A stretch of DNA of 64,000 nucleotides, taken from Bugula neritina. Taxonomy: Eukaryota; Animalia; Bryozoa. Of the stretch, positions 44,952 to 63,995 are shown in pieces. How positions within the stretch are numbered: position 1 is the first letter of the stretch; each line of letters begins with the position of its first letter. A program made the translations under genes and the position numbers. The notes under the pieces were generated by a model, which saw only the letters and a list, made by a program, of their open reading frames with translations, made no database searches and was not told the origin of the DNA. The stretch lies in contig OZ037772.1 of assembly GCA_964035545.1 (NCBI GenBank), forward strand, positions 11,716,818-11,780,817, in the 5' to 3' direction.

Positions 44952-47900
44952 ATGGCCGCTTCTCCTTCACTTCTCCTCTTCTTGTGTCTAGCAGTTGCTG
45001 GGTAAGTTATGAATATATTTATAATGTTTTTAATTATAAAACTTAAATCAATTTTAGCTTATTTAAATTATGATAATTATTGAAATACAATTTTAAAATA
45101 ATAAAAGTAATTACCTGCAGCCATGAATAAAGTACCAGGGAATATCTGTCACTATAAATCACGAAATCTCTATGCATACTTTCTATTTTCTTTAAATAAT
45201 TATACTTAAATTTTGATTAAGTTTAGTTCTGCATTTACTTAAAGTCTGTTATATTATAAAAATAAAAGGAAATTAAACACTGTTTGCTAATCTATATGTT
45301 GTCTTAGTTTACTTATTTTCAAAAGAAAATTAATTAAGAGTATGAAAGCGATTGCATCATAGAAACAACTTTTATGCCTTCTCTCAGCATGAGAACATAG
45401 TTATATAATTATAATTATATAGTATTTATATAATGTTGTAGAGCTAATGGGCTGTGGTGCTGTGGTGACATTGACACCAAGGTCACTTCACAGATAAAGC
45501 CTGTGACCCGCTCAAGGACCATTCAGATGACAGCCGTAGAAACCTATAACCTCAAAACAGGTTAGAACAGAGGCTAAACTCTAAATATAAAACTAATTTA
45601 CTATTAGAGTAGGCAAACTATCTTAATATACATTTTAGCTATTTATTCGAAATATATGAGCATGACTGTGCTGTGTTTTAAATTGAGATTTTAGCTACAA
45701 TGAAGGCATTCAATATAGCTTGTGTATGTCAAACAACAACGAAAATTGCCTTATAAGCAGCTGCGAGTTAGGGGAGGGACTATTTTAGCTTGGGGATCTC
45801 GAGTTTGGTGTTGGGGGACCTAACTCCAAACTTGAGACTCCAAACTAAATTCGTCCTTCACCCATAACTCGGAGATGCTTATAGAACAATTCCAACAAAA
45901 CCTCAGACAATAGCCTTTGTTTCTAGGCTATAAGATATGCCCCAACAATACGGTGGCTGAGAAGGACGTGCCGACTGGGCTAGGGAAGAACCCAGACAAC
46001 ACTGAGGAGAATAGAAAGAAAGTTTTTGGAAACAAGGGACGCTTCAACATCCTCGGTCTGCTGCTCAACGGCAAACTTGGTGGGTAGAAGACTTCACATC
46101 CTGTTTTAACTTTCTTGAGTTATTCCATTGGTTCAACTGAGTTTGATAAAACTGTTTATTTATAAACACAGCCACTTTTTTTGTTAAAAACCTAGACAAG
46201 AGCTTACAATATACTGCATATATATATTACAATTTTACGTTATGTTTTATACAGCATTGAGCATGGTAGCTTTTGTTAAAATATATTATATCATTTCATG
46301 CCGTATTGTGTGTGAGAGGTATTATATATCTTGATTGTATGAAACCATTAGAAACAATTAATATGCTGGCCATTAAGGCTTAATTATTGCTGTTATATAT
46401 ACACTTAGGTGTGCAAAAGGTTCTGTACGTGGTTTGTTTGTTGTGTGCGTATGTGTAAATGTGTGTGCGTATATTATATGTAACACATGAGTGTATACTA
46501 TATTATAAATACTTGCATACATGTTGATTATACACGTGACTTTATAAATTGCAGACAATGATGAGTATCACAGCTACTGTCCTGTCTATTCTATCAAAAC
46601 AAGGTAAATTAAACCATATATTACATAATCTGACAAGCTTGTACAGTATAGAAATTTAAATGTCAGGAGATATGAATTGTTTTATAGATAACTCTGCTGC
46701 TATTGGTATACAGAATGCATGTAAATATACTGATATTGTACTTTCAATTAAACCTATGTCTCAAATTTAATAGAATAATATGTCATAATATTGTATTTTC
46801 AAATTAAAGTGAGAAACTTTTTACAAATTTATTTTTAAAAAATGAGTTGAAATTGTAACAATTATTTTCCAAATTTATTTAGACGATTCAGTCGCAATGA
46901 GCGAACCGTTAGTAAATTATATTATGTACTCTGGTAGGCCTGTAGTAAATTATATTATGTAAATATGTGGTAGGCCTGTAGTAAATTATATTATGTACTG
47001 TGGTAGGCCTGCAGTAAAGTATATTATGTACTGTGGTAGGCCTGTAGTAAAGTATATTATGTACTGTGGTATAGGCCTGTAGTGAAGTATATTATATACT
47101 GTGGTAGGCCTGTAGTAAAGTATATTATGTACTGTGGTAGGCCTGTAGTAAAGTATGGCGTAGAATACTACAAGACGGCTGTGTTTGACGATGAAAAGGC
47201 TTCTTGTTCGGCCAATAAAAAGATTTGTTGTCGTGGTTACAAGCAAGTTGGAGAAAACTGTGTAGGTCAGTGAGAGAACAATTCTGGACATATTTTATGT
47301 CGACTAACAACTTTTTAAATAGCCAGTTTGTCACCTTTTGGCTGTGGGCCATTTTTTTCTAATTTCATAAAGAAAATACAAGCTTGTTTAAACTCTCAAT
47401 TTTAAGAGCCAAAAACTGTGCCTATACTAGCATGAATTACTTGAAGGCTCCTGCTTGAAACATATAAGAACAACTGCATGAACAGCTAGGTTTGTTCCCT
47501 GAAATCACCAATGACTTTGACAAGCTGTAAACCCATGATCTAGTGCATATATACTGTATCAATCTTACATTAAATTATATATATAATATATTGTTTTTAA
47601 ATACGTAAATTATATGTTATGTTTATATACGTATATATGTAATTGTGGTGTAATATATATGTGACATGAGTAGTATAATAAGCGCCTCTACGGCTATGGA
47701 AGTAAGCATCTCGCATCGACCAATTTGTCAACATAGTGTAGACTCTATGGCTATGGAAATTAGCATCTCGTTAACTATGTGAGCATTGTATTTGTTATTG
47801 ATGAATTAGCATTGTAAGCCTTAAAGTTGACAGGTGGTAGCTATTAAATTTAGCTTACGGTGAATACACCTTTTAACTAACTACGTAGTCAGAATCTCAC

Positions 47901-50900
47901 GTACTAAAACATTGATCTATGATTAGTTACCCTCGTTATATCACTGTTGTCACTTTGGTAAATTCTACACTCCGTATAATATTCAATAACCAAAAAGAGA
48001 TTTCTTTTCACCATGAGTTTATTTTCTTCAACAAAAAATGTCATAATAGAATATTACAGCTTTAAATTTTAACAGGATAAGAAGCTTGTTCAAAAATAAA
48101 AGGTAAGTCTACAATTTCCAGTTCTTTATTTAAAAAATTACTATATTTTTGATTAATGTAATTAAATATAAAAGCATCATTTGCGTATGTATCACAACAA
48201 TCATTTATTAAAGATATAATGTGTTCTAGTGAGAAACCTCTGGCTAAATGCGTTAACACAAAAATACAGTATTGTCCGCAAACTGTAGAAAATACAGATT
48301 GTAGCTGAGTGCTACTAAATTGCCAAGAGTCTACTGAATCAAATATAGCCGCAACCTCTGGCATGTTGTAAAGACCACTTCCAAAAGAGTCAAAATAAAC
48401 TCCTGTGTTATTTTCTGTCTTTAGAAACATCACCCAGTGCTCTCCCGGATGATTGTGAGGTTTAGTGTTTACAACTCCACAGCAAGGATAATCCGTCAAA
48501 CTACTACTAGGTATTCTATCGACTGGAAATACACCGATGAAGTTCATCTTTTTCACCCACTCATCGTTCTCAAGAATGGAATATATTTCTTTAGAATTCA
48601 TCACGCGTAGAAATTTGTAAGTACCGCTCTATTCTTATCAATTTTTATACCAGAGTCAAATTCGGAATAGACAATCACATTAACGGGTGTGTCAAGAGCC
48701 TGAGAAAACTTTAGCTCTAATCTTATTGTTCCTCGCTTCATCAAATGAAAGCAAGTGCTCAAATCTAGGTCAGGAGTTAAATCAAAGGCCATTAGACTGT
48801 AACCTTTCTCGTATTCCTCTCTATCTATATCTATTCCGCCATTGTTGAACACCTTTCCCGTTGATTCCAAGAGCGTAAAATAGTTTCTTAGAGTATTATG
48901 ATTTGTGTAGTCTGAAACCAATGCCTTCTGAGGTACTTGTTTCCCGTCAACGACTAGGTTTGTATATTTTAAATGTTTGTGCTGAAAGTTGAAAGGATTC
49001 AAATTGTACGCGCCTTCGAATGCACCAGCGTTTACAATACCTATAACTATCCTCTTAGGCAGAATACCGTGAAATAAATTTTCTTCGTTCCAAGACAATG
49101 AACCCAATGCGATATTGAATGACTTCATATCAACTCTTCTGATAGGATAAACGGCTGGCAATAGTTTCTTGTCTAAATTTTCAATGTGCTTTAATTGTAT
49201 TCCGCTATTGATTTTAACTTTTCGAAGGAAAAAAGATGCGTTTAGGATTTTTAGTTTGCAAGTAGAGTTTTCACCAGCCATTAGCACTAAGCTGTTGTGA
49301 TTCCTCACAAACTTTAATTTCATGTCTACTCCATTTAAAATGAATCGTCTTTGAAAGAATATGTCAGCGTGCGGTCTAACAATTAACTGCACAGTTTTAC
49401 TCTGCCCCGTAATTCGCCTTCTAGCTTCCAAGCCTTCATTATCACCACCAATGTGATCCATTTTTCCGGGTGTATCCTTTGAGTAGAGTGACATTGATAG
49501 TTGTGACTTTTTAGCTTCATCGGAGTAACTTAGTAAAGTTTCTATAAGAGCTCTGTAGTGGTAGAGATTAGAAGCGTTGGAAATAACTACATCATTTAGC
49601 ATAATTTCTACTTGTTGAAATAATGTGTGACCCAAAAGGTTTATAGGAGCCGCATCACCTTGAGCATCGAGATCCGTACCGTCAGCTTTTGTTATTTTCA
49701 CCTCTAATAATAGATAGCTTGAACTGAGGTCAAGGTAGTTGTTCGAATCACCAGAGATTGAGAACTTTATAGGTCCCTCATCATTCAGTGAGGTTGTGGG
49801 CATATGTTCTACGTGATATCCTTCTTCGATTGATGCTTGAGTAGGTAGTGTAGAAAATAAATCTAATTCGGGTTTGCCAGCGAGGCAGCTATGTTCCATT
49901 ATGAAACTCATAGTATAGTATTCTATGAAAAGATATCGCGTTTAGTAACCCTACGTCTTTTCACCTTTGAAGACTTGGAAGAAGTAACTCTGTTAGTCTG
50001 ACGCTTCCTTTTTTTATTTCGATTTCTGTTGGTGACGTATGTAATACCTTTAGTAATAACCTCTCCAGCCGCGCTGTTGACATTATCTTTAATTGACTCT
50101 CTGAATGGTTTACCGGATAAACTATCTCTGGCAATGTTTAGACCAGTATTTATTGCTGTCTTTCCTAAACTTTTTACACCTTGTTTTACAACAGGCAATG
50201 CTGCTTTGAGTATGTTACCAAATATGCTCCCTAAACCGTATCCTGTTTGATATTTTTCTCCTGAAAATATTGGAATCATTCCATTTCCTGATTGTTCATA
50301 TAACTGTCTATAGCTATTTGATGCGGCATCACAATCGAATGGAATTATTCTCATATTAGGTTTATAGGTTTAACTTTTCGAATATCTACCGTTACCACTG
50401 TACGTCCATGCGTGAATGGTACTCTTTCACCGTAATCCGTGTATATATAAATTGATACACTCGAAACATGCGTTTTATTTATTTTGCAGTACTGTACATT
50501 GTTAAAGTTAGTGGACTGCAACCTCCAATGACCATCCTCGACTCCTACAACTCTTAGTAGTTGAGCCTGAGTATCTCCAACAATACTAGATTCTGCTACA
50601 TCTGTATACACCATCAGGTTAAATATTGTATGTAATCTTATTGGAGTATTGTACTTGACCAAAATTGTGCCATCGGTCATTGATTTTATCTCCATTTTTT
50701 CTTCCTGTACATTAAGTATTTTCTCAAGAGATGGTGAGTATGTGATGTCTATAGAGCAACCTCTAACATTTTCAGCAATGACATAAAAATTCTTATTGAC
50801 ATCGTTGTAATAGAAATTAAATTTTACTTTCAGATTTAAACACTGGTCATTTATTGCTTGATTGATAGATTGTATTAGCTTTTTATCTGATTTGTAGTAA

Positions 50901-53900
50901 CCATCATCTAGATGCACTGTTTCTTCAGCTTCATTTACTTTTAAGGTTATGCTGCACTGTTTCACATTGAACCATGATTTATAAAATTGTATCTCACTCA
51001 ATCCGATCTCGTAAGAGCCATCTGTAAAATCTAAACTTTGAGGCAATTGAACTGTGTATACTGAAAGACTATTTTTTGGAAAATGCTTCAACGAAGCATT
51101 ACTAGGTAAAACAACGCGCATCTTTGTAAGAGTGACAACATATAAGTTTATTATCTAATTCTTATAGTTAAAAATTACATCTCTTTTATCAACATACGAG
51201 TCAAAACTTGGCGGATATCCAGCCCACCTTACAAGAAATTGTTTTTTACCATTTACAGTACGCTGACCAACAATTGACTCTATTTTATAGGTGTTGCTCT
51301 TGGTGTTTACTTTCTGCAATTCCGGTTCATACCATGTTCCTTCTAGCTGATCACCGCTGTCATCCGCGAGAGAATACACTGGAGGATTAGTAGTGTGGAT
51401 TTTCGCTATGGTAAAGATTTCTTCGCTCCAAGAAGGAAGGTATCCTTTTTTAAATACTGTACTATATTTCGATATTCTAACGAGATCTCCAACATTGTAT
51501 TTTAGTTTGTTAGTTTGACCACTCTGACTATCTGTGTATAGTCTATGCCAAATTTCTTCTTGATTGTTAACTGTCACATCATTAGGTGTTGAGTTATGAG
51601 CCGAGTGTTTCGAGTTATTGTATGATGATATTAGATCATTGAGAATGTCAAGATATCTGTGACTGTTTTGATGAGTAAAATATTTAAACAATTTAGCCTT
51701 TAGTGTTCTTTGCAGTCTTTCAACCATAGATGCTTTAATTTCTTGATTGTTGGATGAAAAGTGGTTTATGTTATATTCTTTCATTAATGCTTTAAATTGA
51801 GGGTTAAAGAATTCTTTGCCTCTATCTGATAAAATCATTTCTGGTGGAGTGTTGTTGTTTTCGTTTTCTATAATCTCCCTCATAGCTCTACTCACTTCTA
51901 AACCAGATTTAGTTTTGAGTGGTACACCGTAGGCTTTACGACTGAATGTGTCAATGCTTAATAGTATATACTTGAATCCATTATTTTCGGATGAAAACTG
52001 TTGGAGATCTGTTAAATCAATTTGCCACATGGCATTAATACCTGATACAATATACTTTCGTCTGGGAAAGTTTTTTCGCAAAGGTTTATGTAGGTTATAG
52101 CTGTCAGTTTTTTCAAGCCATCTATCAATTGCACCCTTGCTTACTTTGCCTTTTAATGATTTGTATAATTTTGCTTTACTACCAAATCCGGCTGGTTTAG
52201 AAATATTGAAATAGGTGTCTCGAATTAGTTTATCAGTATAGCTGGAGTCTGGATTTTGCTTTTTTCGTTTTCGCCTTGCCATCGTATGGATCCCACTCGC
52301 CTGATGACAATTTACTAGACTCTCTTCTACTTTTAGATTTCTCTTCGATAACGTTTTGATTAATGAGTAGTTTGGGTACATTGTAATCAATTAATACTTG
52401 TCTAAATTCTTTCCACCCTTCCAATGTTTTACCTTTCAGTTGACTATTAACCGCAAGATTTAATAGATCAGATAAATTGCTTCCGCGTAGTTGGTTGCCG
52501 TTAATAGTTACCTGCCCCGCATCATTTACAGAAACTTTACCATCTTTTTTCAGTATATCCCAAAGTTGACTCGCCTTTGTTTTAAATCTTTGAGGGATAG
52601 CTAGTAGTGGGTTATAAGATGTAAGACTTTCTGTTTCTTTTAGTTGTGGTTCACTATTCTTTGATAAAGTAGGCAACCTTGTGCTAGATATTTTCTTATA
52701 AGTAGTAGTTTTTAACTCTTGATAATTAGTCAACGCGTTGTTATAAGCAGTTACTTTCTTATTTTCTGATAGCGTGTTGTCATTTAAGATTTCACTCATT
52801 AGCTTATCTACGGCAAATAGTTCTTTAGTAATCAAAGGTTTGTTTCTCTCGACTTGTTGATAATCATTATTTTTGCTGACATCAGCATTTACAAATGAGT
52901 TGTGTTTTAGATCCGCGGCATCCACTAACAAGAATTTTCTAGCGCTTTGCGAATTCATCTTTTTCTAAAACCGCTGAATATTCCTTTCGCTAGTGGTGCT
53001 AGAACACTTCCTATTAGTGGTCCTAAAAGAGCCGAGAGAAACCCTCCTTTCTGTACCAGTGTTTTTTTAGTTTTCAGTGTACTCTTTTTATCAGCAATCT
53101 TTCTTAAAATATTTTTGTATTTACCTAAGTTGTTTTCTTCAGTAGGTGACAATGACACCTTGCCTTTTAATACGTTGTAGCAAATATCTGAGAAACAGTT
53201 CAACAGTTCACTACCCGCTGCGTTGATGATTGCTTTACAGTTGTGTTTGTCACATTCAGCTAAATAACTTAGAGTCTTGGCATGTTTTTTAATTCTAGCG
53301 GTCATGATTTATGTTAGCTTCAAGCTGCATTTCTTTGTAATGAAGTAGCGTTTCTGTTTGACAAATAGATATAGGTTTTCTCACCCGGAAATACACCTGT
53401 TCTAATGCGCAAATAGTCTTCTGTCTCTTGCCTGTAGTCTATAACCAAGTACCCAAAGGGGACAGAAGTGGCGTCTCGAAACGCTTCAACAACAAAATTA
53501 CTCTGGTTTTTAGGAAACATTTGTCTTGCCAAATAGGATATCTGGTTCACGTCTCTAGGGTTTTTAAATACAACAACATAAGAAGCGCTTCGAGACATTG
53601 TTCTCATGTGAGAGTTGTCTTGAAACAGATTCTGTGTTATAAATATTACGCTTATGTTGCGATGGTGACTGTGCTTAGTAAATATGTTTTCAATATTCTG
53701 ATCTATTTCACTCATTAAATCATCAAATATTATCAAGTTTTTTATATTTTTGTTTAATTCTTGTATATCGATAACACCTTGATGAAACTCAACGTTGTTG
53801 TATGAGCTAAACAGTGGCTGCCACTCACTATAACAATATATTATTTTTTCAGGTGGAGGTGATATCATTGTATGACTGTTGGTAATCAATTTCCTTACCC

Positions 53901-56900
53901 ACTGAGTTTTACCAGCCCTTGAAGGACCAGCTACAATTGCTGAAAATGTATGGTAGAAAGGTAAGCTCATGATGTTAACTGTATATTCCGAGAGTTTATT
54001 CCCAAATAATTGTATCAAGTAATGTACAAAAATATTAATAGGCATAAAAAAGTATAAATAGATTTAGGCAAGTTCAGGCATGTTTAGGCATGTTTAGGCA
54101 TGTTTAGGCAAGTTTAGGCAAATATACACAATTATATACAAAATAAACTATTGTACATTGTTTTGTTTCTCGAGAGCTATTCCCAAGTTCCATTGGATCT
54201 GTTGAATAAAATATTTCACTGCGAAGTGTTCTCCAGCCTCGATATACATTTTGCAAATTTGCACGCACAAGAAAAATATTGTTTCTAAGCGAATAGCTGA
54301 GATATTTGGATCAGTCAAATCTTTTGCCACTTTACAAAACTGAACGTAACCGTTAGTCTCGTACATATCCTCGGCTAGTTCGACCAATTCATTTATTTCT
54401 TCCTCACTCCAATTTTGATGTTTATTGTACATGTCCAAAACGGTTTGCGTTATACAATAGTTAACGTAATGTTGTCTACTCATTTTCGAAAGCTTGTACC
54501 ATATATAATTATAAGCGTTTTTCTGTAATAGGTATAAATTTTCCATCGTAGAATATTGATTGATGCGACCTATCAACCGAACAGTGAAATACCAATTAAC
54601 TGAACGCGCTAACTGAACACAGTTTTTTTACAGTAAAGTAGGTTTGGTTGTCACGTGATCTTGTGACACAATTCTCTTTCCGTAAAAATAATTTAAAGCT
54701 TTTCGATTTTGAACGTACGTGAATATTTCTTCACCTTTTACTCGAAAACCCTTGTTCGTACCGTAAGCAATTTTCTGATTTATCAATACATCGAAGTAAT
54801 CTTTTTCGGTATAGTTGTTGTGCAATTTACTGACACCTTTTGAACTGTATTTAGGTTCTTCCCCGAAACAATAGTAACATTTGGAGCAAAGCGCTACAAC
54901 ACCTCGGGAGACATTTTCGCAGTGAAACAACCCCAAAGATCTTTTGTGGAACTTGGCACTAGCTTTACAACAGTCTAATGGATTCCAGGTTTGCCCGTTA
55001 AACATACATTGAAAATATTGTGACTTGTGTTCATCGCAATATTCTCTACACATCCAACTAGTGTGTTCTTGTTCAAATTCATTTCTCATATCACTTTTAA
55101 CCGCTAGGTACAAAGTTTTTTCACTTAGAGCTAAATACATTGAGTCAGTGTCCATTTGAATCAAAGCAAAACTGTCTAGAGATAGAAACTTTAACAAGAA
55201 ATCGTAATAGAATTTCAACATGGCTAGCTTTGCATACTCTAATACTTGAAAGCCAATTTGTACTGGTACATTGAGTCTAATCTTAGCTTTTCGTGATTCA
55301 ATTTCAACTAGTTGAGAATCAATTTCTTGTAAGCTGTTAAATCTAGGATTGTTTACCAGTCTTGAGATGTTTGTCTCTTCAGCATCACAATATATGATAT
55401 CAGTGTGACTCTCCAGGTTGACTAGTGTTCGGCCATACGCAGAGTTTCCTGAAATATAGCGAAGTGGATTATTTTGAAATATATTGAGTAATTATTCAAT
55501 GCAAAAGTTATCGCTCTTGCTAGATGCTTAAGTGATTTGCATATTAATAACCATTGAATAAGTGCTATGTCTAAACATGTCAATATTTACTAAATACCTA
55601 TTAGTTTGCATGAATCCGATATAATCTTCTTTGAGGAATCGAGGTCACCAGCTCTCCTGGCCTCCATTACCTTTTCACCAAACAGCTTGAAGCATTTTGA
55701 TGGCTTGTATTGAATTACTTGATATACTTTTGTAACCACTAAGCCGTGTTGTAGGTACCATTGCAGTAGCGGGGTGGACAAAAGGATTTTGTTCCCGAAA
55801 TAGCTACTGATTAAAGTACGTGATGGCTTTTTTAGTAAACCATTTCGTTCTGCAAATTGTTTCATGTGTGGGCCTATGTCATCCCTTGATATCAGTACAT
55901 TTTTTTGTATAGGTTGATATTTAGCAAATATTGTTTTCAAGTCTTCAGGTGTTTCTATATCAACTTCAGCCATTCCAAACATTGAACCATTTTTGATTTC
56001 TTCTAGTATTTTGCTTTCTGATATTACGTATCTTGAATCAACAATGAAGTCCAGATTTGAGCAGAACTCACTGACATCACTGTTTTCCTTTTTCAAATTA
56101 TCAAATTCACACTCCCAAGTATGGTAGACTCTGTAACCCAAATCTTGGAAATATTTCAGCGTATTGTATGTGTCTATTTGATTTTGTAAATCTTTTTCTT
56201 TGTTATTAAACTTTCCATTTGGACAATAGTCGCATAGATGTCCGTGAAACCAGCATCCTGAGTAGTTGAACACTTGTTCACTACCATCACTCGCCAGAGC
56301 GTATCCATCGACTGGTATGTTTCGTCCACCTATTCGACGTTCGGTGCTATTAAACTTGTGTTGAATTTTGACTCCGAGCAGCTTTGACATGTATTTTAGC
56401 CATACTGTAGCTTTTTCACCCGAATAGTAGCTTTTTTCTATTCTAAAGCTATTTTCTCTCCGCCTTCTTACAAAGGCTCCTGTGGGCATATCTTTCACTA
56501 GGCAACTCAAATATAAACTTGTCGCATCATACCCTACACATGTTTGCGTAGTTTTGGCTTGATCACCAAAGTATTCAGGTTTAATCTTTGTTGCGCCAGC
56601 TTCTTGATACCTTGAGAACACAATTGATAAACCACCTCTAATGTTTGATTTGATAAGTTGGTGAATGTCTTTAAACTTATCACCAAACAGAAAGATTGGC
56701 GCTTCTGGGTCTTTTAATTGAAATAAATATTGAATCGCTAGTCCTGGTATAGATATAGCTGACTTGAAATCAAGATTGCATGATTTGTAAAATTCATTTT
56801 GCTTTTCTAATGCTGGTATAAAGTGTCTGACATCTTCGTTATTGTAGTACTCTAGTAAGTCTTTTAATGTTTTCATTCCTTTCTGCACCCATATTTCTTT

Positions 56901-59900
56901 GCATTTTTCATACTCCTGAACGGATATGTTTTTACCTTTCAGTTTACTGTAAAACTCTTCATGAGCGGGGAACTCTGTTCTGTCTAGCACTTCCATAGAT
57001 GTGAATATGTCATAAGGCCAGAAGAATTTTTCCCCTTCAACTCCCATAGCTTTTAGATAATCAGAGTACGAAAACCCTGGAGCAAGGAAATTGAGCACGT
57101 CTAGAAATCTTAATTTTTCCGTTTGAATACACATGTATTTGTTTCCTTTTTTAGCTGTAAACAAAACTTTTTGGTTTTGTTCTAATAGATACCGTAGCAT
57201 ATGTTGTCGAATCAATGGAATGTCATAGACAGCGCCGTTGAAAGACAAGATCATCAAGTCTTTCAAATAACAGTGGAGTTGACTTTCTAGTGATTCAAAC
57301 TTTTTTTTGACATTGTTCACTGCTTTGTTATTACAACTAGCTTCAATTTCTTTCTTGATACACTCGTCAGCTTTTTCACGTAGTTGTTTAAACACATCAT
57401 TGTATCTAACAAGCAATCTCTGGTAGCATACTTCAGACAGCTTTGTAAGGAAATCCATCATTTTCACAACCAGCTCGTATTCATTTCCAGAATTCATGAA
57501 ATTCACTGGTTGTGTATAGCCAGATACGTTTGAGCATAAACTTATACAAGCCAACTTGTGTTTGTTTTCATAGTGTATTGTATTTGTGTTTGCAGGTAAA
57601 TCAATCGAAGACATCATCGTTTCGCAATCAAACACAGCAAAGTACGGATAATGTCGTCTATTTTCATCAACTGTGATGTGAACATCTTCAAGCTTTTCGA
57701 AAATAGATCGAGACGGAGTATACACCCCGTAGGGATACACAAGGTTTGTTTCACCAGCTGTACATACTGTGTTATGACTATTCAACGCTCTGACTGATTT
57801 CATTAGCTTGTTACAAAATGTACATTTGTATGACTTTGTGTAAAGAGAGATGTTTTTTATCCAACTGAAATGTGATTCCTCTAGATGTAGGTTTAGTTTG
57901 TGTTTGTAATTGGTAGTGGCTCTGTACATAAGCTTTGCATTAGCTTCTTTCCCTGTATTGTATTCCAAGGTGTACACATTAATAGAACAGTTCAGTATTC
58001 GCTCGGCAAATCTGAGGTCTGATAAAGGCACTCCTGTAAAATCTTGATTCAGTTTGTTCATACCATTCAAGTACATTTCATAATAATGTTTCGTAGACTG
58101 TGTTAAAGTACTCTGCTGCCCCTTTGAGTAAGCTAGAGCTCTAAATAGACATAAGTTGTCTTCATACAGTCTTCCAGTTGTATCAGTGCTAGCTGTTATA
58201 ATTGCTTTGTTTTGTTTTGTTCTCTCAGATGGAGATATAGGGCATCCGATATTGTGATCTGGTATAGGAAATACATACAATGTAATATTTGTTATTTTGT
58301 GAACACTCCACGAAGTGTTTGGCCTGTTTTGAGTTGCTTTCTCTATGAAATCTTTTTCTGTCATTTCTTTCACAAGTTGATTGAAATCTTGTAAATTCTC
58401 TATTAGCTTTGGCGAGGCAAAAAGTTTATCAACACCCATGCTAGCATGAAAGTATCTCAACTTTTCCTCATTTTGATTCAAAAGGATAAAACCAATTGAA
58501 GCATTGCATTTGAATTTCAATGTTTGTTCATGAAATATTAATTTCACTTCTTTATTGTTTAAAGTTGAAATAATGTCATTGTCTTTTATCAATCGATTGT
58601 AGACACTACAATATTTCCCTTTTCTGTTGTACGTTCTTATAGCTGACCAGTTTTTTCTCAATAGAGCATTTGTTTCCTCTTCGTAAATGCCTTTGTACTG
58701 ATAGCGTTCAATATCATCACTGAATGTGGTTTGAGGCTTTTTGTTTGACCTTCTCTCTGCTCCGTTTGAGTTTGTATTCTAAAATTTACCAAGATTACCA
58801 TTGATTAGTTAGCTTTGAGTTTGTTGTAATAGTATATGTAGTATGATCATATTCATATCGTATCGTATCACTCAGTAGATAAATTACCGTGTTATGACAT
58901 CGGTGATTTGTTTTCCACGGTGCATACAACCGTTTACATTGATCACATCTTTTTTTGTGGATACTTTGGTGCCTGCTCAAACTTTGCCTGTGGTTATAAC
59001 TTTTTCCACATATGTGGCACTTGAATTTCTCTAAAACATTGAAGTATAAATTATTCTTTTAACCACCTTGATAGAGATGCAAGGATCAAAGAAAATTACT
59101 TCAAATAGAGATATTGTTTATTAATATGTAAATAGATACACTCATAAATGTATATACTTGACATATAGTGGCATTATCAGATAGAATTGTCAGGTTTACT
59201 ACACTCTTCATCAGAGCCAGAAGAACAGTGTTTTAAACTTTTTCATCGAGTATATATTAAGATATATTGAAATAAATTGAAATAGATTGAAGTATATAGA
59301 TATTGTATATTAACAACTCGCTTTTATACATTTTGTGTTTAATAGTGGCAGAGATAGTATTGAATTTCTTTTCATCGAGTATATATTGAGATAGATTGAA
59401 GTATATAGATATTGTATATTAACAACTCGCTTTTATACATTTTGTGTATAATAGTGGCAGAGATAGTATTGAGTTTCTTTTCATCGAGTATATATTGAAA
59501 TAGATTGAAGTATATAGATATTGTATATTAACAACTCGCTTTTATACATTTTGTGTTTAATAGTGGCAGAGATAGTATTGAGTTTCTTTTCATCGAGTAT
59601 ATATTGAAATAGATTGAAGTATATAGATATTGTATATTAACAACTCGCTTTTATACATTTTGTGTTTAATAGTGGCAGAGATAGTATTGAATTTCTTTTC
59701 ATCGAGTATATATTGAGATAGATTGTAATATATGGATGTTGTATATTAACAACTCGCTTTTATACATTTTGGGTTTAATAGTGGCAGAGATAGTATTGAA
59801 TTTCTTTTCATCGAGTATATATTGAGATAGATTGAAGTATATAGATATTGTATATTAACAACTCGCTTTTATACATTTTGGGTTTAATAGTGGCAGAGAT

Positions 59901-62900
59901 AGTATTGAATTTCTTTTCATTGAGTATATATTGAGATAGATTGAAGTATATAGATATTGTATATTAACAACTCGCTTTTATACATTTTGGGTTTAATAGT
60001 GGCAGAGATAGTATTGAATTTCTTTTCATCGAGTATATATTGAGATAGATTGAAGTATATAGATATTGTATATTAACAACTCGCTTTTATACATTTTGGG
60101 TTTAATAGTGGCAGAGATATAGTATTGAGTTTCTTTTCATTGAGTATATATTGAGATAGATTGAAGTATATAGATATTGTATATTAACAACTCGCTTTTA
60201 TACATTTTGGGTTTAATAGTGGCAGAGATAGTATTGAATTTCTTTTCATTGAGTATATATTGAGATAGATTGTAATATATAGATGTTGTATATTAACAAC
60301 TCGCTTTTATACATTCAATAGTAGCAGTGCTAGTATTGAATTTCTTTTCATTGAGTATATATTGAGATAGATTGTAATATATAGATGTTGTATATTAACT
60401 CGTTTTTATACATTCAATAGTAGCGGTGCTAGTATTGAATTTCTTTTCACTGAGTATATATTGAGATAGATTGTAATATATAGATGTTGTATATTAACAA
60501 CTCGCTTTTATACATTCAATAGTAGCAGTGCTAGTATTGAATTTCTTTTCATTGAGTATATATTGAGATAGATTGTAATATATAGATGTTGTATATTAAC
60601 AACTCGCTTTTATACATTTTGTGTTTAATAGTGGCAGAGATAGTATTGAATTTTTTTTCATTGAGTATATATTGAGATAGATTGTAATATATAGATGTTG
60701 TGTATTAACAACTCGCTTTTATACATTTTGTGTTTAATAGTGGCAGAGATAGTATTGAATTTCTTTTTACTGATTATATATTGAGATATATTGTAACAAT
60801 ATTTTAAACAATAATACGCATAAAAGTATTCCATTCACCAACATAAAATATTTCCCCATCACCAAAAAATACAACATATTTATATTAGAGAGTCAGTGTC
60901 AGTCCGTCAGCCTAAAAATTTTATGATCGGCTCCGATCGTTTAAAATAATTATATTCATCCGGTGATATGTCGTCTAGTTTGATTTCGGTCACATTTAGT
61001 GACCAAAATAAGTCCTCGTTTACTTTTTTTATCACACCGCTTCTCAACACGCATGTTAATTTTCCCACTTTTCCATACAGTTGTTGTACATTTAATAACA
61101 CAGGTTGTCCATTGACTACAGCATTTACGCAAATTTCGTCTTCCATGTTTCTGACCACGTCAACATAACATCCGAGCAATGATGCATTTTCACTTTTACC
61201 GTAAAACTTAACTTTTTTTTCAAAAATTTTAGCTAGCTTTGTTTTAAAAAGTTCTAGATTTTTAGATTTTTTCACATATAAACATGGCCCACTGTTGGGA
61301 ATTTTCGACTCGTATATTTTTAATTCACCTATAAATTCATCAGATTTAAAAAAGAATTTACGCGAATGATTAAATGTAGGTATTATCTTGTCATTGTCAG
61401 TGTAGTAGGATAATTGTGATTGATCATAATTAAGAGGGACTAAATAGCAACCTTCTTCATTTGCAGGTGTTTTGCTCTGATCGACAGCGGTAGCAGCAGT
61501 GGCAGCATCATCACTTGTAGTAACAGTTGTACCAGTAGAGGAACTAGCGGATGGAATAGACAACGTCATAGAGGAAGGAGTGGTAGTAGCGCTAAAAAAG
61601 AGGGATCTATTACTATGTTTTATAATATGTAACTTATTCTACGTAATATAATTTATTACACGACAAACGTCTGTTTATTTGTTTATAGTTTGTCAAGTGA
61701 ATACAATTAATTGTGAGTCTTACAGATGATTGATGATTTACGATATTCTACTAACCTCACGCTGGTAGATACAGATGGCTCGCTAGTCGACTCATCCACC
61801 TTTGGAATTGATGCAGGTTTCTTACGCTTTGATTCACCAGACTTAGATTCACTAAAATAATATTATTGTAATGAATAAAATGCTACTTTTAGCTGATAAA
61901 AAAGGTTAGCATAATTATAGAAAGCTAACACTATAGTAAACTAAAATCATTCTCGTGTTAATAATATTCTAACAGGTTAGTGGTTAGCATAGTTATAGAA
62001 AGCTAACACTATAGTAAACTAAAATCATTCTCATGTTAATAATATTCTAACAGGTTAGTGGTGAGATATCCAAAAGAAATATATTATTACTTACTTTTTT
62101 CTTTTAGAAGGCTTTAAGGCTTTGAGTGGTTCAACTGTACTGGAACTAGTACTCGTTTCTCCCACTTTTCTTCTGAGTTGTAGTAGTTCAGCTTCTAACT
62201 TCTTTACTAAATCTCCCATGGTGTTTGCTGTATGGTTTGGGATGCGATGAAACATAGAAGTTTTTCGAGGCTTTTATATACTGAGATTTTGTAATTTATT
62301 CCTACGTAAATGAAATTTATCTTAACTAAAAGTTTTCCTCTTTTTTATTATAGGGAGTTGGGTGGTAACATTTTAATTGTAATCTGCCGGTTTAAGGTTT
62401 ACTCACGTAAGCAATATTATATCAGTTTACGTAGGTGATACGTGTTTTAACAGTTGCATATGTATTTAAATTTCAACTAGGACACTTCCCATCCGTAAAT
62501 TAGAAATTGCCGTGTCATCCATCTTAGCTGAAAAATTTTCCGATTTCTAACTATAATGAGGAATTGAGTTGTTAAATTTTAAATACAATCCACCCATCTA
62601 GGGTTTAATTACTGGGCGATATTATATCAGGTTATACAAGATTTTATTATGTTTTACTTCCCATTGATTAAATTGGAAACCGCTGTGTCACCTCCTAATT
62701 TTTGCTAATATTAATTTTTACTTTGTCAAAGTTTCAAACATCATTAGCATAAGGTTAATTATCTTTTTTCTGCTTTTTGAGTTTCAGAAAAATTGTGTCA
62801 AGTTATAAGTTTAAAAATGGAGTTGCAAATAGAGTTGGACCATAAGACATGTTTTTTGTTTCCATTTAACATTTTATTATAAACTATGAGTTGTATACAG

Positions 62901-63995
62901 AAAAACATTACATTCCGTAATAATTATTTTCTAAAATGTGTTTAGTCAAAACTGTTAACAGCTTAGATGGTGAAGACGCATCACTCTGAGACATATTACC
63001 ATTCAAGAAAAAATATTGTATAGTTATAAAATCCCCGTGAACTTTAGTGTTGCAAACAGCTAGTTTTAAATTGTCAGTCATTTCGAAGTGTTTTGTGCAG
63101 TTATTGAACATTCTGTCTAAAGTATAATTAGTTGAAAACATCTTTCCAGAAAAGCTACCATTACCGCTCATAACTATGTTGATTACATTCATTGATAAAA
63201 ATAGTGCTACCAGGATAATAGCGATAGGTTTCTTTTTTAGTTCTGAAAAGCTCCAGTCATTCTTTGCATTATCTCTCCTGGTCGAAACTTTATTAATGAG
63301 TGTATTCCGATTATGTACAACTTTTCTCGCCACATCTAACTCATCTTCAGCCACATTTGCATCTTGTTCATTAAATATAGGATCTTTATTTTGCAAGGGA
63401 AAATTTTCTACTTCTGTCATCATTGATTAACCTTTGCGCTCAAAACATATAACGATGAATGATGTAAATTTCAGAATGGTGATGTTTTATACCAAAAAAC
63501 ACACAAATTTTGACTCGCAAACTGTATAACTCTCAGCTCAGTGAGTAAATTTTGTTACTTATAAAGTTAGTGACAAGGATATACAGCTAAACTAATCATT
63601 GATCCACCTTCCAGTAATTGCTTAAAAAGGTGTATTCACTGTAAGCTAAATTTAATAGCTACCACCTGTCAACTTTAAGGCTTACAATGCTCACATAGTT
63701 AACGAGATGCTAATTTCCATAGCCATAGAGTCTACGCTATGTTGACAAATTGACCGATACGAGATGCTTACTTCCATAGCCGTAGAGGGGCTTATTATAC
63801 TACTGACATGTGCTTACTATTAACACAGAAACATACATATTATTATGTGTAAAATATATGCACGCATTCGATCTCATATGTGAGGAATTGCTGTGTTACA
63901 AATACAAACCTGTCATTTGTTTTGCAGAAGAAAAAAAAGCTGGTGATGCAAATGACGCTCTGGACTTCCTTAAGGGTCTTGGCATTGTTGGATAA
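44952..63995 (+). CDS. Small secreted EMI-domain-like host protein, ~7 exons; last intron contains the Polinton
   Basis: Phase-compatible exons: 44952-45001 (signal peptide MAASPSLLLFLCLAVAG), 45442-45560, 45927-~46079, 46555-46603, 46883-~46910, ~47149-47265 (…KICCRGYKQVGENCV, EMI-type CCxGY-x5-6-C end; phase-1 donor G|GTCAGT) and 63928-63995 (TTTGCAG|AA, phase 1; EEKKAGDANDALDFLKGLGIVG-stop). Confidence 0.7.
45745..45890. mobile_element. Short palindromic MITE-like element
   Basis: Imperfect inverted arms AATTGCCTTATAAGCAGCTGCGAGTTA ... TAACTCGGAGATGCTTATAGAACAATT, with an inner CTCGAGTTTGG/CCAAACTTGAG pair. Confidence 0.55.
46911..47155. repeat. ~33-bp tandem repeat filling an intron of the EMI-like gene
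   Basis: Unit TATTATGTACTGTGGTAGGCCTGTAGTAAAGTA, ~7 copies, running into the next exon. Confidence 0.9.
47669..47874 (+). repeat. Left TIR (206 bp)
   Basis: Reverse complement of 63625-63804, with 6 substitutions and a 26-bp extra segment. Confidence 0.95.
48062..48601 (-). CDS. Adenain-like cysteine maturation protease (PRO)
   Basis: Motifs NTKPHNHPGEHWV, YFDSFG, QLQS..STVCGQYC (His/Asp/Gln/Cys). ATG at 48601 overlaps the MCP stop (TGATG). Confidence 0.92.
   Translation of the reverse strand: MNSKEIYSILENDEWVKKMNFIGVFPVDRIPSSSLTDYPCCGVVNTKPHNHPGEHWVMFLKTENNTGVYFDSFGSGLYNMPEVAAIFDSVDSWQFSSTQLQSVFSTVCGQYCIFVLTHLARGFSLEHIISLINDCCDTYANDAFIFNYINQKYSNFLNKELEIVDLPFIFEQASYPVKI
48601..49911 (-). 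CDS. Major capsid protein (double jelly-roll, Polinton PY/hexon-like), 436 aa
   Basis: ELDLFSTLPTQASI, YLDLSSSYL, TLFQQVEIMLN, YHYRALIETLL, LPKRIVIG, NPFNFQH, GYSLMAFDLTPD are typical Maverick MCP motifs; position fits. Confidence 0.9.
   Translation of the reverse strand: MSFIMEHSCLAGKPELDLFSTLPTQASIEEGYHVEHMPTTSLNDEGPIKFSISGDSNNYLDLSSSYLLLEVKITKADGTDLDAQGDAAPINLLGHTLFQQVEIMLNDVVISNASNLYHYRALIETLLSYSDEAKKSQLSMSLYSKDTPGKMDHIGGDNEGLEARRRITGQSKTVQLIVRPHADIFFQRRFILNGVDMKLKFVRNHNSLVLMAGENSTCKLKILNASFFLRKVKINSGIQLKHIENLDKKLLPAVYPIRRVDMKSFNIALGSLSWNEENLFHGILPKRIVIGIVNAGAFEGAYNLNPFNFQHKHLKYTNLVVDGKQVPQKALVSDYTNHNTLRNYFTLLESTGKVFNNGGIDIDREEYEKGYSLMAFDLTPDLDLSTCFHLMKRGTIRLELKFSQALDTPVNVIVYSEFDSGIKIDKNRAVLTNFYA
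49923..50354 (-). CDS. Conserved small basic Maverick protein (putative core/membrane-lytic precursor), 143 aa
   Basis: QSGNG / QTGYGLGSIFG..LKAALP motif, amphipathic helix, K/R-rich tail ending DIFS; lies between the minor and major capsid genes. Confidence 0.7.
   Translation of the reverse strand: MRIIPFDCDAASNSYRQLYEQSGNGMIPIFSGEKYQTGYGLGSIFGNILKAALPVVKQGVKSLGKTAINTGLNIARDSLSGKPFRESIKDNVNSAAGEVITKGITYVTNRNRNKKRKRQTNRVTSSKSSKVKRRRVTKRDIFS
50351..51121 (-). CDS. Minor capsid protein (penton, single jelly-roll), 256 aa
   Basis: N-terminal VLPSNAS..FPKNSLSVYTVQLP..YEIGLSEI and C-terminal VYTDVAESSIVGDTQAQLLRVV motifs of Maverick mCP. Confidence 0.85.
   Translation of the reverse strand: MRVVLPSNASLKHFPKNSLSVYTVQLPQSLDFTDGSYEIGLSEIQFYKSWFNVKQCSITLKVNEAEETVHLDDGYYKSDKKLIQSINQAINDQCLNLKVKFNFYYNDVNKNFYVIAENVRGCSIDITYSPSLEKILNVQEEKMEIKSMTDGTILVKYNTPIRLHTIFNLMVYTDVAESSIVGDTQAQLLRVVGVEDGHWRLQSTNFNNVQYCKINKTHVSSVSIYIYTDYGERVPFTHGRTVVTVDIRKVKPINLI
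51155..52282 (-). CDS. Retroviral-type (rve/c-int) DDE integrase with C-terminal chromodomain; probable start MARRKRKK at 52282 (ORF open to 52390)
   Basis: WQIDLTD, LSDRGKEF, ASMVERLQRTLK (D,D,E); KGYLPSWSEEIF; chromo-like YKIESIVGQR...FLVRWAGYPPSFDSYV. Confidence 0.93.
   Translation of the reverse strand: MARRKRKKQNPDSSYTDKLIRDTYFNISKPAGFGSKAKLYKSLKGKVSKGAIDRWLEKTDSYNLHKPLRKNFPRRKYIVSGINAMWQIDLTDLQQFSSENNGFKYILLSIDTFSRKAYGVPLKTKSGLEVSRAMREIIENENNNTPPEMILSDRGKEFFNPQFKALMKEYNINHFSSNNQEIKASMVERLQRTLKAKLFKYFTHQNSHRYLDILNDLISSYNNSKHSAHNSTPNDVTVNNQEEIWHRLYTDSQSGQTNKLKYNVGDLVRISKYSTVFKKGYLPSWSEEIFTIAKIHTTNPPVYSLADDSGDQLEGTWYEPELQKVNTKSNTYKIESIVGQRTVNGKKQFLVRWAGYPPSFDSYVDKRDVIFNYKN
52233..52958 (-). 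CDS. Conserved Maverick hypothetical protein (PZ-type, label tentative), 241 aa
   Basis: Motifs MSEIL..LSENKKV..Y, VNDAGQVTING..LRGSNLSDLL, GWKEF..NVP resemble the uncharacterised ORF seen next to the integrase in animal Mavericks. Confidence 0.7.
   Translation of the reverse strand: MNSQSARKFLLVDAADLKHNSFVNADVSKNNDYQQVERNKPLITKELFAVDKLMSEILNDNTLSENKKVTAYNNALTNYQELKTTTYKKISSTRLPTLSKNSEPQLKETESLTSYNPLLAIPQRFKTKASQLWDILKKDGKVSVNDAGQVTINGNQLRGSNLSDLLNLAVNSQLKGKTLEGWKEFRQVLIDYNVPKLLINQNVIEEKSKSRRESSKLSSGEWDPYDGKAKTKKAKSRLQLY
52955..53305 (-). CDS. Conserved small basic Maverick protein with adenovirus pX/mu-like C-terminus, 116 aa
   Basis: NVLKGKVSL..YKNILRKIADKK..LVQKGGFLSALLGPLIG; ATGA overlap with the next gene. 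Confidence 0.75.
   Translation of the reverse strand: MTARIKKHAKTLSYLAECDKHNCKAIINAAGSELLNCFSDICYNVLKGKVSLSPTEENNLGKYKNILRKIADKKSTLKTKKTLVQKGGFLSALLGPLIGSVLAPLAKGIFSGFRKR
53320..53970 (-). CDS. FtsK/A32-like DNA packaging ATPase (probable start MSLPF at 53970; ORF open to 54045)
   Basis: Walker A GPSRAGKT, Walker B LIIFDD, HHRNISVIFITQNLF, VFKNPRD, PFGYLVID. Confidence 0.92.
   Translation of the reverse strand: MSLPFYHTFSAIVAGPSRAGKTQWVRKLITNSHTMISPPPEKIIYCYSEWQPLFSSYNNVEFHQGVIDIQELNKNIKNLIIFDDLMSEIDQNIENIFTKHSHHRNISVIFITQNLFQDNSHMRTMSRSASYVVVFKNPRDVNQISYLARQMFPKNQSNFVVEAFRDATSVPFGYLVIDYRQETEDYLRIRTGVFPGEKTYIYLSNRNATSLQRNAA
54066..54115. promoter_or_regulatory. Five tandem p53-family consensus half-sites (putative response element)
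   Basis: AGGCAAGTTC AGGCATGTTT AGGCATGTTT AGGCATGTTT AGGCAAGTTT; each is 10/10 RRRCWWGYYY with zero spacer. Function is untested. Confidence 0.6.
54148..54546 (-). CDS. Accessory alpha-helical protein, putative divergent Bcl-2-like fold, 132 aa
   Basis: ATG at 54546 (MENLY). The segment GYVQFCKVAKDLTDPNISAIRLETIFFLCVQIC...V..F...I...L keeps the gap-free register of the Bcl-2-family alpha4-BH1-alpha5-alpha6 region. The ORF is well supported; the fold is inferred. Confidence 0.55.
   Translation of the reverse strand: MENLYLLQKNAYNYIWYKLSKMSRQHYVNYCITQTVLDMYNKHQNWSEEEINELVELAEDMYETNGYVQFCKVAKDLTDPNISAIRLETIFFLCVQICKMYIEAGEHFAVKYFIQQIQWNLGIALEKQNNVQ
54628..59030 (-). CDS. polB: Protein-primed family B DNA polymerase (pPolB) polyprotein, spliced: exons 59030-58888, 58778-55598, 55448-54628; first exon unresolved; ~1380 aa
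   Basis: ExoI FDCET, ExoII FNGAVYD, ExoIII YNNEDV, motif A YDATSLY, motif B KLIG|NSAYG rebuilt across a 149-bp GT-AG intron, motif C MDTDS, KCY..SKGV. The N-terminal part has a C2H2 finger and an OTU-like DNLCLFRAL..SHFSW region. Confidence 0.92.
59240..60797. repeat. 109-bp tandem array, 14 copies (three ~100-102-bp variants), inside the Polinton
   Basis: Anchor CAACTCGCTTTTATACA recurs at 59314, 59423, 59532, 59641, 59750, 59859, 59968, 60077, 60188, 60297, ~60398 (degenerate), 60498, 60600, 60709. Confidence 0.95.
60907..62219 (-). CDS. Three-exon Polinton gene (62219-62095, 61851-61756, 61591-60907), 301 aa; putative nuclear ssDNA-binding protein
   Basis: Kozak ACCATGG at 62219; donors AA|GTAAGT and AG|GTTAGT; acceptors TTTTAG; both introns are phase 2 and the frame is continuous into track ORF 60907-61569. 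Coiled-coil N-terminus, KRKN..KRKKP NLS-like motif, S/T-rich linker, beta-rich C-domain. Confidence 0.75.
62271..62280 (-). promoter_or_regulatory. TATA box of the 3-exon gene
   Basis: TATATAAAAG about 50 nt upstream of the Kozak ATG at 62219. Confidence 0.6.
62908..63423 (-). CDS. Accessory single-pass membrane protein, 171 aa
   Basis: KKKPIAIILVALFLSMNVINIVMSG signal-anchor-like segment, followed by N-x-S/T sequons NGS, NYT, NCT, NMS; TATAAAA at 63491-63485. Confidence 0.65.
   Translation of the reverse strand: MMTEVENFPLQNKDPIFNEQDANVAEDELDVARKVVHNRNTLINKVSTRRDNAKNDWSFSELKKKPIAIILVALFLSMNVINIVMSGNGSFSGKMFSTNYTLDRMFNNCTKHFEMTDNLKLAVCNTKVHGDFITIQYFFLNGNMSQSDASSPSKLLTVLTKHILENNYYGM
63625..63804 (-). 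repeat. Right TIR (180 bp)
   Basis: Inverted copy of the left terminus; ends ...TTATACTACT followed by the TSD GACATG. Confidence 0.95.

What the first reader, a model, noticed from the sequence alone, without database searches (positions are those of the whole stretch)
55449..55597. Spliceosomal intron splits catalytic motif B of the viral DNA polymerase
Seen: the 1023-aa ORF stops at ...CKLIGI*, but AG|GTATTT (55597) and TATTTCAG|GA (55449) define a 149-bp phase-1 intron. Removing it restores KLIGNSAYG and an open frame through MDTDS to the stop at 54628. Unspliced RNA would give a protein with terminal-protein/protease/exonuclease regions but no complete polymerase active site. Inference: intron retention could act as an on/off control of replication, or supply excess primer protein. 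It also means ORF-based annotation would wrongly call this element decayed.
Basis: partly seen in the sequence, partly recalled or inferred. Interest (0 to 1): 0.8.

Follow-up and report, generated by a model that had tools for sequence, protein, structure and literature searches.

The report
Conserved intron in Polinton polymerase gene
A virus-like jumping element (Polinton/Maverick) has a host-style intron inside the active-site region of its DNA-copying enzyme gene; the intron is cut out in two likely RNA data sets and sits at the same spot in many distant relatives, the gene likely shares one spliced unit with a predicted single-strand-binding protein, and nothing found shows an on/off switch.

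Summary
The intron is real. 55449-55597 (minus strand) is a 149-nt phase-1 GT-AG intron in motif B of the pPolB gene of an intact 16.1-kb Polinton. The exact splice joint appears in 2 of 6 RNA-like runs (two studies) and 0 of 2 DNA-like runs. It is old: 6 of 43 scorable metagenome loci have an intron at the same position (68-191 nt, mostly unrelated sequence), 16 homologous ORFs break there, the last exon is under purifying selection, and a tree favours one gain plus about four exact losses. The switch idea has no support: relatives use ordinary donors, and several lineages lost the intron. New beyond the finding: the polymerase gene has no start codon of its own. Conserved splice phases predict six exons, whose first three are shared with an upstream gene whose model matches gp2.5/CP312R-type ssDNA-binding proteins. 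That would be an adenovirus-E2-like unit; it is inferred, with no RNA joint seen. Papers searched call Maverick core genes intronless. This scan noted intron-split Polinton polymerases before on other DNA (11 notes).

The parts
47669..63804 (.). Complete Polinton/Maverick element, 16,136 bp
   Evidence: AGTAGT termini at both ends, terminal inverted repeats 174/180 identical, identical 6-bp target-site duplication on both flanks
55449..55597 (-). The finding: 149-nt phase-1 GT-AG intron inside polymerase motif B (last intron of pPolB)
   Evidence: Sequence; splice joint in runs X1 and X3; same position in 6 related loci
54628..55448 (-). Last pPolB exon: second half of motif B, motif C (DTDS), C-terminal part
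   Evidence: Open frame; 48-55% identical to relatives; dN/dS about 0.09 between L011 and L013
55598..58778 (-). Main pPolB exon: terminal-protein-like N-part (by position only), vOTU-like Cys/His, Exo I-III, motif A, VSR insert, first half of motif B
   Evidence: Motif conservation over 21 sequences; VSR hit E 1e-4; model matches family-B polymerases including phi29 weakly; architecture from PMC11161782
58779..58887 (-). Predicted 109-nt phase-0 intron between zinc-finger exon and main exon
   Evidence: Phase-0 donor in 16 of 17 zinc-finger hits; phase-0 acceptor read by eye in 7 of 7 loci; no RNA joint seen
58888..59030 (-). Predicted C2H2 zinc-finger exon of pPolB (no ATG; phase 1 in, phase 0 out)
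   Evidence: Pfam zf-C2H2 E 2.9e-5; phases conserved in 16 of 17 hits; finger fused to the polymerase N-terminus in the continuous relative P0024
59163..60857 (.). Tandem array of about 109-bp units, inside the predicted long alternative intron
60907..61591 (-). Last exon of a predicted ssDNA-binding protein gene (gp2.5/CP312R-like fold); holds the internal phase-1 donor at 61451
   Evidence: Model pLDDT 86.7; Foldseek ranks 1-9 all ASFV CP312R, T7 gp2.5 or Enc34 SSB; VIA Z 8.6, rmsd 4.5, 155 aligned; donor in 12 of 15 aligned rows
61756..61851 (-). Predicted leader exon B (96 nt, phase 2 to 2)
   Evidence: inferred
62095..62219 (-). Predicted first coding exon A (ATG in strong context at 62219, TATA-like box at about 62280, consensus donor at 62094)
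   Evidence: inferred
48062..54045 (-). Downstream module of intact ORFs: packaging ATPase, two unnamed ORFs, integrase with chromodomain, probable minor capsid, unnamed ORF, major capsid, adenain-like protease
   Evidence: rve and Chromo above cut-off, Adeno_IVa2 E 8.6e-5; Capsid_N E 0.024 and Peptidase_C5 E 0.016, both weak; same order in L003, L014, L015. The minor-capsid label is recalled from gene order and comes from no call

Best explanation
The 149 bases are a spliceosomal intron that is cut out in two likely RNA data sets and sits at the same position in many diverged relatives; it was likely gained once by the ancestor of this Polinton clade and is likely removed routinely, as one of a predicted five introns, each time the host spliceosome makes polymerase mRNA. 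Shown: splice signals, the exact joint in two studies, the same position and phase in relatives, purifying selection on the last exon, and exact absence in some relatives. Inferred: one gain followed by about four exact losses, probably by recombination with a reverse-transcribed spliced mRNA. Inferred: transcription starts near the right terminal repeat. Three leader exons are used either with the rest of an ssDNA-binding-protein exon, or, through an internal phase-1 donor at 61451, with the zinc-finger, main and last polymerase exons (1,501 codons by exon arithmetic). The donor choice at 61451, not retention of the motif-B intron, is then the likelier point at which polymerase output is set.
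For: Joint 55447 to 55597 skipping 149 nt with GT-AG ends in X1 (1 contig, depth 13.3) and X3 (2 contigs, depth 5.6), 37 letters on the short side, studies P1 and P2. None in DNA-like X14, whose contig 55198-56877 carries the intron, or in X15. Same-position phase-1 GT-AG intron in 6 of 43 scorable loci of 70. 16 of 60 scorable homologous proteins end 0-37 aa after the same Gly. 15 of 15 close last-exon ORFs that reach motif B begin with a foreign run. dN/dS about 0.09 on both sides of the intron for L011/L013, with the intron 76% identical. Clade of 30 rows, support 1.0: 21 with and 9 without; 1 gain plus 4 losses against 9 gains. Phases of the 5' exons conserved in relatives and consistent along the window's six exons with no stop.
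Against: 4 of 6 RNA-like runs show no joint (X4 low cover without joint; X6 and X10 no cover there; X5 a 93%-identical chimeric contig running through the intron). The tool only guesses that these runs are RNA, and contigs are unstranded. The window's donor (GTATTT) is the weakest of seven. All six intron-bearing loci come from one series of assemblies. 15 of the 21 'intron' rows in the clade are inferred from protein ends, without DNA. A TATA-ATG-donor chain was found in only 2 of 6 lineages by a simple script. One ORF outside the clade (P0034) breaks at the same site, which fits recurrent gain.
Confidence: 0.82

Rival explanations
1. Regulated retention: the intron is kept for use as a switch. 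Unspliced RNA yields a polymerase-dead protein with terminal protein, protease and exonuclease, which shuts replication off or supplies extra primer.
For: All 7 DNA-level introns give an in-frame stop within 26 nt of the donor. The window's donor is weak. The intron is the last one, so a retained transcript might escape junction-dependent decay (inference). The unspliced product would keep vOTU, Exo and motif A. The position is conserved across a deep clade.
Against: Early stops are expected in AT-rich introns. Relatives have GTAAGT, GTGAGT or GTTAGT donors. Tails of 0-37 aa are not conserved. The intron has no fold beyond shuffles (z -0.78) and no AATAAA/ATTAAA in 6 of 7 introns. About four lineages lack it. 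Relatives carry further introns at other polymerase sites (L014, L018). The vOTU cleavage proposed in PMC11161782 already frees terminal protein from the full-length protein.
Confidence: 0.15
2. Recurrent independent gains at a proto-splice hot spot rather than one ancestral intron.
For: Intron sequences are mostly unrelated between lineages. The window's junction has a 3-base repeat at both ends ('both' = 3). P0034 outside the clade breaks at the same site.
Against: It needs 9 gains against 5 events. The earliest-branching rows of the clade are broken at the site. Synonymous sites are saturated between lineages, so unrelated intron sequence is expected. The intron has no terminal repeats and no copy elsewhere in the window or in the 70 loci.
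Confidence: 0.1
3. The joint comes from intron-less sister copies in DNA, and the 149 bases are a disabling insertion in a dead copy.
For: Intron-less relatives exist (37 of 43 scorable loci, 12 of them in the clade). Run type is a guess. The terminal repeats have drifted by 3% plus a 26-bp indel.
Against: No joint in 2 of 2 DNA-like runs, which carry the intron. X1 and X3 also show canonical GT-AG joints on the other strand, as RNA would. All other ORFs are open. Same position in distant relatives, with selection on the last exon.
Confidence: 0.03

Closest known systems
Polinton/Maverick elements of animals (polintoviruses, adintoviruses), pPolB with VSR insert as in Jeong et al.'s marine mollusc/nematode pPolB2 subgroup
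   Same: Terminal inverted repeats, 6-bp target duplication, pPolB, rve integrase, ATPase, protease and capsid genes; VSR domain inside the polymerase.
   Different: Core genes are described as intronless (PMC8097293; bioRxiv 2022.07.12.499685). Here the polymerase has one RNA-supported, clade-wide intron and four more predicted ones. Placement within pPolB2 was not tested on a tree with named references.
Adenovirus E2 transcription unit
   Same: One spliced unit encodes the ssDNA-binding protein, preterminal protein and polymerase; polymerase mRNAs are rare (PMC7851563). The same three functions are predicted here from one leader.
   Different: Here terminal protein and polymerase are one polypeptide, the binding protein is predicted to have a gp2.5-like OB fold (the adenovirus DBP fold differs; recalled), the shared leader is coding, and there is an intron in the catalytic core. 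Adenovirus introns lie mostly in untranslated regions. The shared unit is inferred, not seen in RNA.
Introner-carrying Polinton-like viruses of dinoflagellates (Gozashti and Corbett-Detig, bioRxiv 2025.03.18.643946)
   Same: Spliceosomal introns inside Maverick-Polinton-like elements.
   Different: Those are young, repeated, transposon-made introns, mostly gained after integration. This intron has no copies or terminal repeats and is shared across elements whose proteins are about 47-68% identical.
T7 gp2.5, Enc34 SSB and ASFV CP312R
   Same: Best structural matches for the upstream ORF's model.
   Different: About 10% identity, TM-score 0.4-0.5; DNA binding was not tested.

Membership tests
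Polinton/Maverick | Terminal inverted repeats with AG...CT ends and 6-bp target-site duplication | tested here: met
Polinton/Maverick | Protein-primed family-B polymerase with Exo I-III and Pol A-C motifs | tested here: met
   Motifs conserved, family-B structural hits, homologues with PF03175; the window's own ORFs have no Pfam polymerase hit
Polinton/Maverick | Retroviral-like (rve) integrase | tested here: met
   PF00665 E 2.4e-14
Polinton/Maverick | Packaging ATPase | tested here: met
   Adeno_IVa2 22 bits, cut-off 21
Polinton/Maverick | [quoted passage not shown] | tested here: inconclusive
   Only sub-threshold hits: Peptidase_C5 E 0.016, Capsid_N E 0.024, adenain E 0.2; conserved in the same order in relatives
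Polinton/Maverick as described in vertebrates and nematodes | Intronless core genes (a described trait and screening criterion, not the definition) | tested here: not met
   Intron spliced and conserved; trait
U2-type spliceosomal intron | GT-AG ends, pyrimidine-rich acceptor, exact removal from RNA | tested here: met
   branch point not identified
Introner (transposon-made intron) | Near-identical copies at other sites and terminal repeats | tested here: inconclusive
   No copy in the window or 70 loci, no stable hairpin; whole genome not held
Regulated intron-retention switch | Condition-dependent retention in sense transcripts with a stable truncated product | not testable with these tools
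   Only unstranded contigs were available
Adenovirus-E2-like unit | One promoter and leader spliced alternatively to ssDNA-binding protein and polymerase | tested here: inconclusive
   Conserved matching phases and SSB-like fold; no RNA joint examined for the leader

The most novel reading that the evidence does not exclude
A widespread clade of aquatic-animal Polintons runs its replication genes as one adenovirus-E2-like spliced unit. A shared coding leader is joined either to a gp2.5-like ssDNA-binding protein or, through a conserved internal donor, to a zinc-finger-terminal-protein-protease-polymerase that also carries an ancient intron in its active site. Splice choice sets the SSB-to-polymerase ratio, as in adenovirus, and repeated exact intron losses record mRNA-to-DNA recombination in a DNA-replicating element.
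Probability: 0.55. Interest if true: 0.75.

Novelty: new variant of a known kind. Interest (0 to 1): 0.58.

Why it matters
Papers found describe Maverick core genes as intronless and use intact ORFs to call elements active. An RNA-supported intron that is conserved across a deep clade means such elements are undercounted and their polymerases are mis-annotated at both ends. It ties their replication to nuclear transcription and the host spliceosome. If the shared-leader model holds, it supplies an ssDNA-binding protein for these elements and a testable parallel to the adenovirus E2 unit, which bears on how adenoviruses arose from Polintons. The intron's presence and absence is also a usable marker for mRNA-mediated intron loss in a DNA element.

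Tried and rejected
No whole genome is held, so copy number and sister copies could not be read directly. No holder is on record as RNA; 8 of 18 listed runs were laid. X6 and X10 have no cover at the intron, which says nothing. The zinc-finger intron gave no joint in 6 RNA-like runs, where cover is mostly from diverged, indel-rich copies. Intron structure is no better than shuffles. No copies of the intron were found. The PDB sequence search with the last exon found nothing. Foldseek on the main-exon model did not resolve terminal-protein or vOTU domains, and the VIA searches for that model were not run because the machine was busy; the terminal-protein label rests on position. dS is saturated for the window against relatives. 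Kapitonov and Jurka 2006 could not be opened (ids recalled), and Repbase annotations, Pritham et al. 2007 and all supplements were not seen; they may mention Polinton introns. Searches showed no listing that describes a conserved spliceosomal intron in an animal Polinton polymerase or a Polinton SSB/polymerase spliced unit. The DUF2738 search gave 0 papers. The atlas search for the capsid ORF did not complete. Look-ups by sequence and place in earlier scan notes were empty. In the tree, L047 was labelled intron-less although it is unscored; it lies outside the clade counted.

Full report
OBSERVATION. On the minus strand the donor GT is at 55597 and the acceptor AG ends at 55449: 149 nt, phase 1. 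The upstream frame reaches the Lys of motif B and stops 5 nt into the intron. The downstream frame carries the rest of motif B and the DTDS motif C and ends at 54628. Five frame-compatible GT/AG pairs exist near the site; only the stated one removes no coding residues.

THE ELEMENT. It spans 47669-63804, with AGTAGT ends, terminal repeats 174/180 identical plus a 26-bp indel, and an identical 6-bp target duplication. Integrase and ATPase pass Pfam cut-offs. Protease and major capsid give only weak hits but keep their order in relatives. All these ORFs are open. The nearest named relatives are from a bryozoan, echinoderms and a ctenophore, so an aquatic invertebrate is likely (inference). No whole genome is held.

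SPLICING. Of 18 listed runs I laid 8. The joint 55447 to 55597, skipping 149 nt with GT-AG ends on the minus strand, is in X1 (1 contig, depth 13.3) and X3 (2 contigs, depth 5.6), from two studies, with 37 letters on the short side. It is absent from X4 (low cover), X6 and X10 (no cover there) and X5 (one 93%-identical chimeric contig runs through the intron). It is absent from both DNA-like runs: X14 has a contig across the whole intron, and X15 has contigs across each boundary. The tool only guesses that X1-X10 are RNA. X1, X3, X4 and X10 also show canonical GT-AG joints on the plus strand, which X14 and X15 do not; that fits RNA. Contigs are unstranded, so no retention ratio can be given.

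CONSERVATION. Of 71 homologues of the main exon, 60 cover the segment up to the site: 43 continue through motif B, 16 end 0-37 residues after the same Gly with unrelated tails, and 1 is unclear. Among the 31 best hits to the last exon, none matches the main exon; all 15 that reach motif B begin with a foreign run. Five main-exon and last-exon hits share a contig length. At DNA level, 43 of 70 metagenome loci could be scored. Six have a GT-AG phase-1 intron at exactly this position (173, 170, 170, 191, 69 and 68 nt; donors GTGAGT twice, GTAAGT three times, GTTAGT once) and 37 have none. L012 and L013 have identical introns, and all six come from one series of assemblies. Apart from L011 with L012/L013, the introns are mostly not alignable beyond shuffles. 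Between L011 and L013, dN/dS is 0.029/0.33 upstream and 0.020/0.215 downstream, and the intron is 76% identical, so the exon behind the intron is under purifying selection. L012's last exon stops after 80 codons.

HISTORY. A FastTree tree of the upstream exon alone (86 rows, 557 columns, midpoint root; 11 proteins and near-duplicate or short loci left out) puts the window in a clade of 30 rows with support 1.0. In it, 21 rows have the break (6 by DNA, 15 by protein end) and 9 do not (3 by DNA, 6 proteins, of which P0021 matches L001 and P0004 is a genome annotation that may be a spliced model). One gain and four losses explain this; without losses nine gains are needed. Outside the clade only 1 of 56 rows (P0034) breaks there. 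Exact loss suggests recombination with spliced cDNA (inference from established intron-loss models). L014 and L018 carry one more apparent intron each at other polymerase sites.

THE SWITCH IDEA. An unspliced product would keep an invariant Cys and His placed as in the vOTU domain, Exo I-III, motif A and a VSR insert (architecture from passages of PMC11161782). The terminal-protein label rests on position; the fold search did not resolve it. All 7 introns stop the frame within 26 nt, and the window's donor is the weakest of the seven. Against a switch: relatives have consensus-like donors, tails are not conserved, the intron has no special fold, and several lineages lack it. I put regulated retention at about 0.15.

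THE 5' END. The main frame has no ATG for 113 codons although homology starts near its beginning. It opens right after an acceptor at 58779. Upstream lies an ATG-less C2H2 finger bounded by a phase-1 acceptor and a phase-0 donor in 16 of 17 hits, window included; this holds also for elements without the motif-B intron. In the continuous relative P0024 the finger is the polymerase N-terminus. Further upstream, ORF 60907-61638 has homologues in 14 loci. In 12 of 15 aligned rows (6 lineages, about 20-25% identical to the window) one Gly is encoded as AAG/GT in phase 1, at the border between an unstructured leader and the folded domain; only 11 of 121 Gly codons in these ORFs have that context, these sites included. 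Its exon starts at a phase-2 acceptor in 6 of 6 lineages. In the window, exons 62219-62095, 61851-61756, 61591-61452, 59030-58888, 58778-55598 and 55448-54628 match in phase with no internal stop, 1,501 codons in all. A TATA-ATG-donor chain was found in 2 of 6 lineages. The folded domain's model (pLDDT 86.7) matches ASFV CP312R, T7 gp2.5 and Enc34 SSB at Foldseek ranks 1-9; VIA gives Z 8.6, rmsd 4.5, 155 aligned. The atlas puts it near unnamed Nucleocytoviricota clusters (recognition low). So one transcript likely yields either an SSB or the polymerase by donor choice.

COMPARISON WITH PRINT. Barreat and Katzourakis (PMC8097293; passages) report no introns in intact vertebrate Mavericks, 'in agreement with' Kapitonov and Jurka 2006, which I could not open. 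Widen et al. (bioRxiv 2022.07.12.499685; passages) call the core genes intronless, with introns only in cargo. Jeong et al. (bioRxiv 2023.08.22.554363; passages) used a 900-aa ORF filter and describe VSR-bearing pPolB2 in marine molluscs and a nematode. Gozashti and Corbett-Detig (bioRxiv 2025.03.18.643946; first third of the text) report introners in dinoflagellate Polinton-like elements. PMC12220804 (passages) reports group I introns in such elements. PMC8502044, PMC11296320, PMC6431247 and PMC11131425 (passages) say nothing on spliceosomal introns in these genes. bioRxiv 656579 (abstract) covers introns in domesticated Tc1 elements. PMC7851563 (passages) gives the adenovirus E2 unit. Searches showed no description of this intron or unit; supplements and Repbase were not seen. 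This scan holds 11 unchecked notes on intron-split Polinton polymerases in at least 5 other genomes and one on an E2-like leader; none was found by sequence or place.

VERDICT. It is a real, old, spliced intron in a working-type Polinton polymerase gene (0.82 for the full best explanation). It is a new variant of a known kind. Interest 0.58; the E2-like unit, if shown, would deserve about 0.75.

Noticed in passing
window 48100-57593, plus strand: Spliced antisense contigs cross the element with canonical GT-AG sites: 48100-48423 (X1, X3), 48616-50490 (X1, X3, X4; three studies), 50615-51289 (X1, X3), 53958-54853 (X1), 54985-57593 (X10). They could be an antisense RNA from the left repeat or host read-through.
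   Followed up: partly
window 60907-62219, minus strand: Three-exon gene for a predicted gp2.5/CP312R-like ssDNA-binding protein with a conserved internal donor.
   Followed up: yes
window 59163-60857: Tandem array of about 109-bp units, each with a TATA-like stretch, between the SSB gene and the zinc-finger exon; relatives have other sequence here.
   Followed up: no
L014 4395-4562 and L018 4871-4982: Additional apparent GT-AG introns in the polymerase gene of relatives, one in the VSR insert and one just before motif A; L018 also has frameshifts.
   Followed up: partly
window 56435-59100: Diverged, indel-rich sister copies give the deepest contigs in RNA-like runs (X1 up to about 1,860), so decayed copies appear to be transcribed.
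   Followed up: no
window 62908-63423 and 54148-54546, minus strand: Two ORFs without Pfam hits: a 171-aa ORF with a hydrophobic, membrane-like stretch near the right repeat, and a 132-aa ORF with a homologue in L015.
   Followed up: no
protein P0034: A polymerase outside the clade (about 41% identity over the searched region) breaks at the same motif-B site: possible parallel gain; no DNA seen.
   Followed up: no
window 48000-58800, DNA-like run X14: Flat contig depth of about 1,000-1,500 across the element with few differences, which may mean many near-identical copies; contig depth is not a copy number.
   Followed up: no
window 18295-18740 and 2013-2134 / 22830-22951: Long imperfect inverted repeats and many minisatellites in the host flank.
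   Followed up: no
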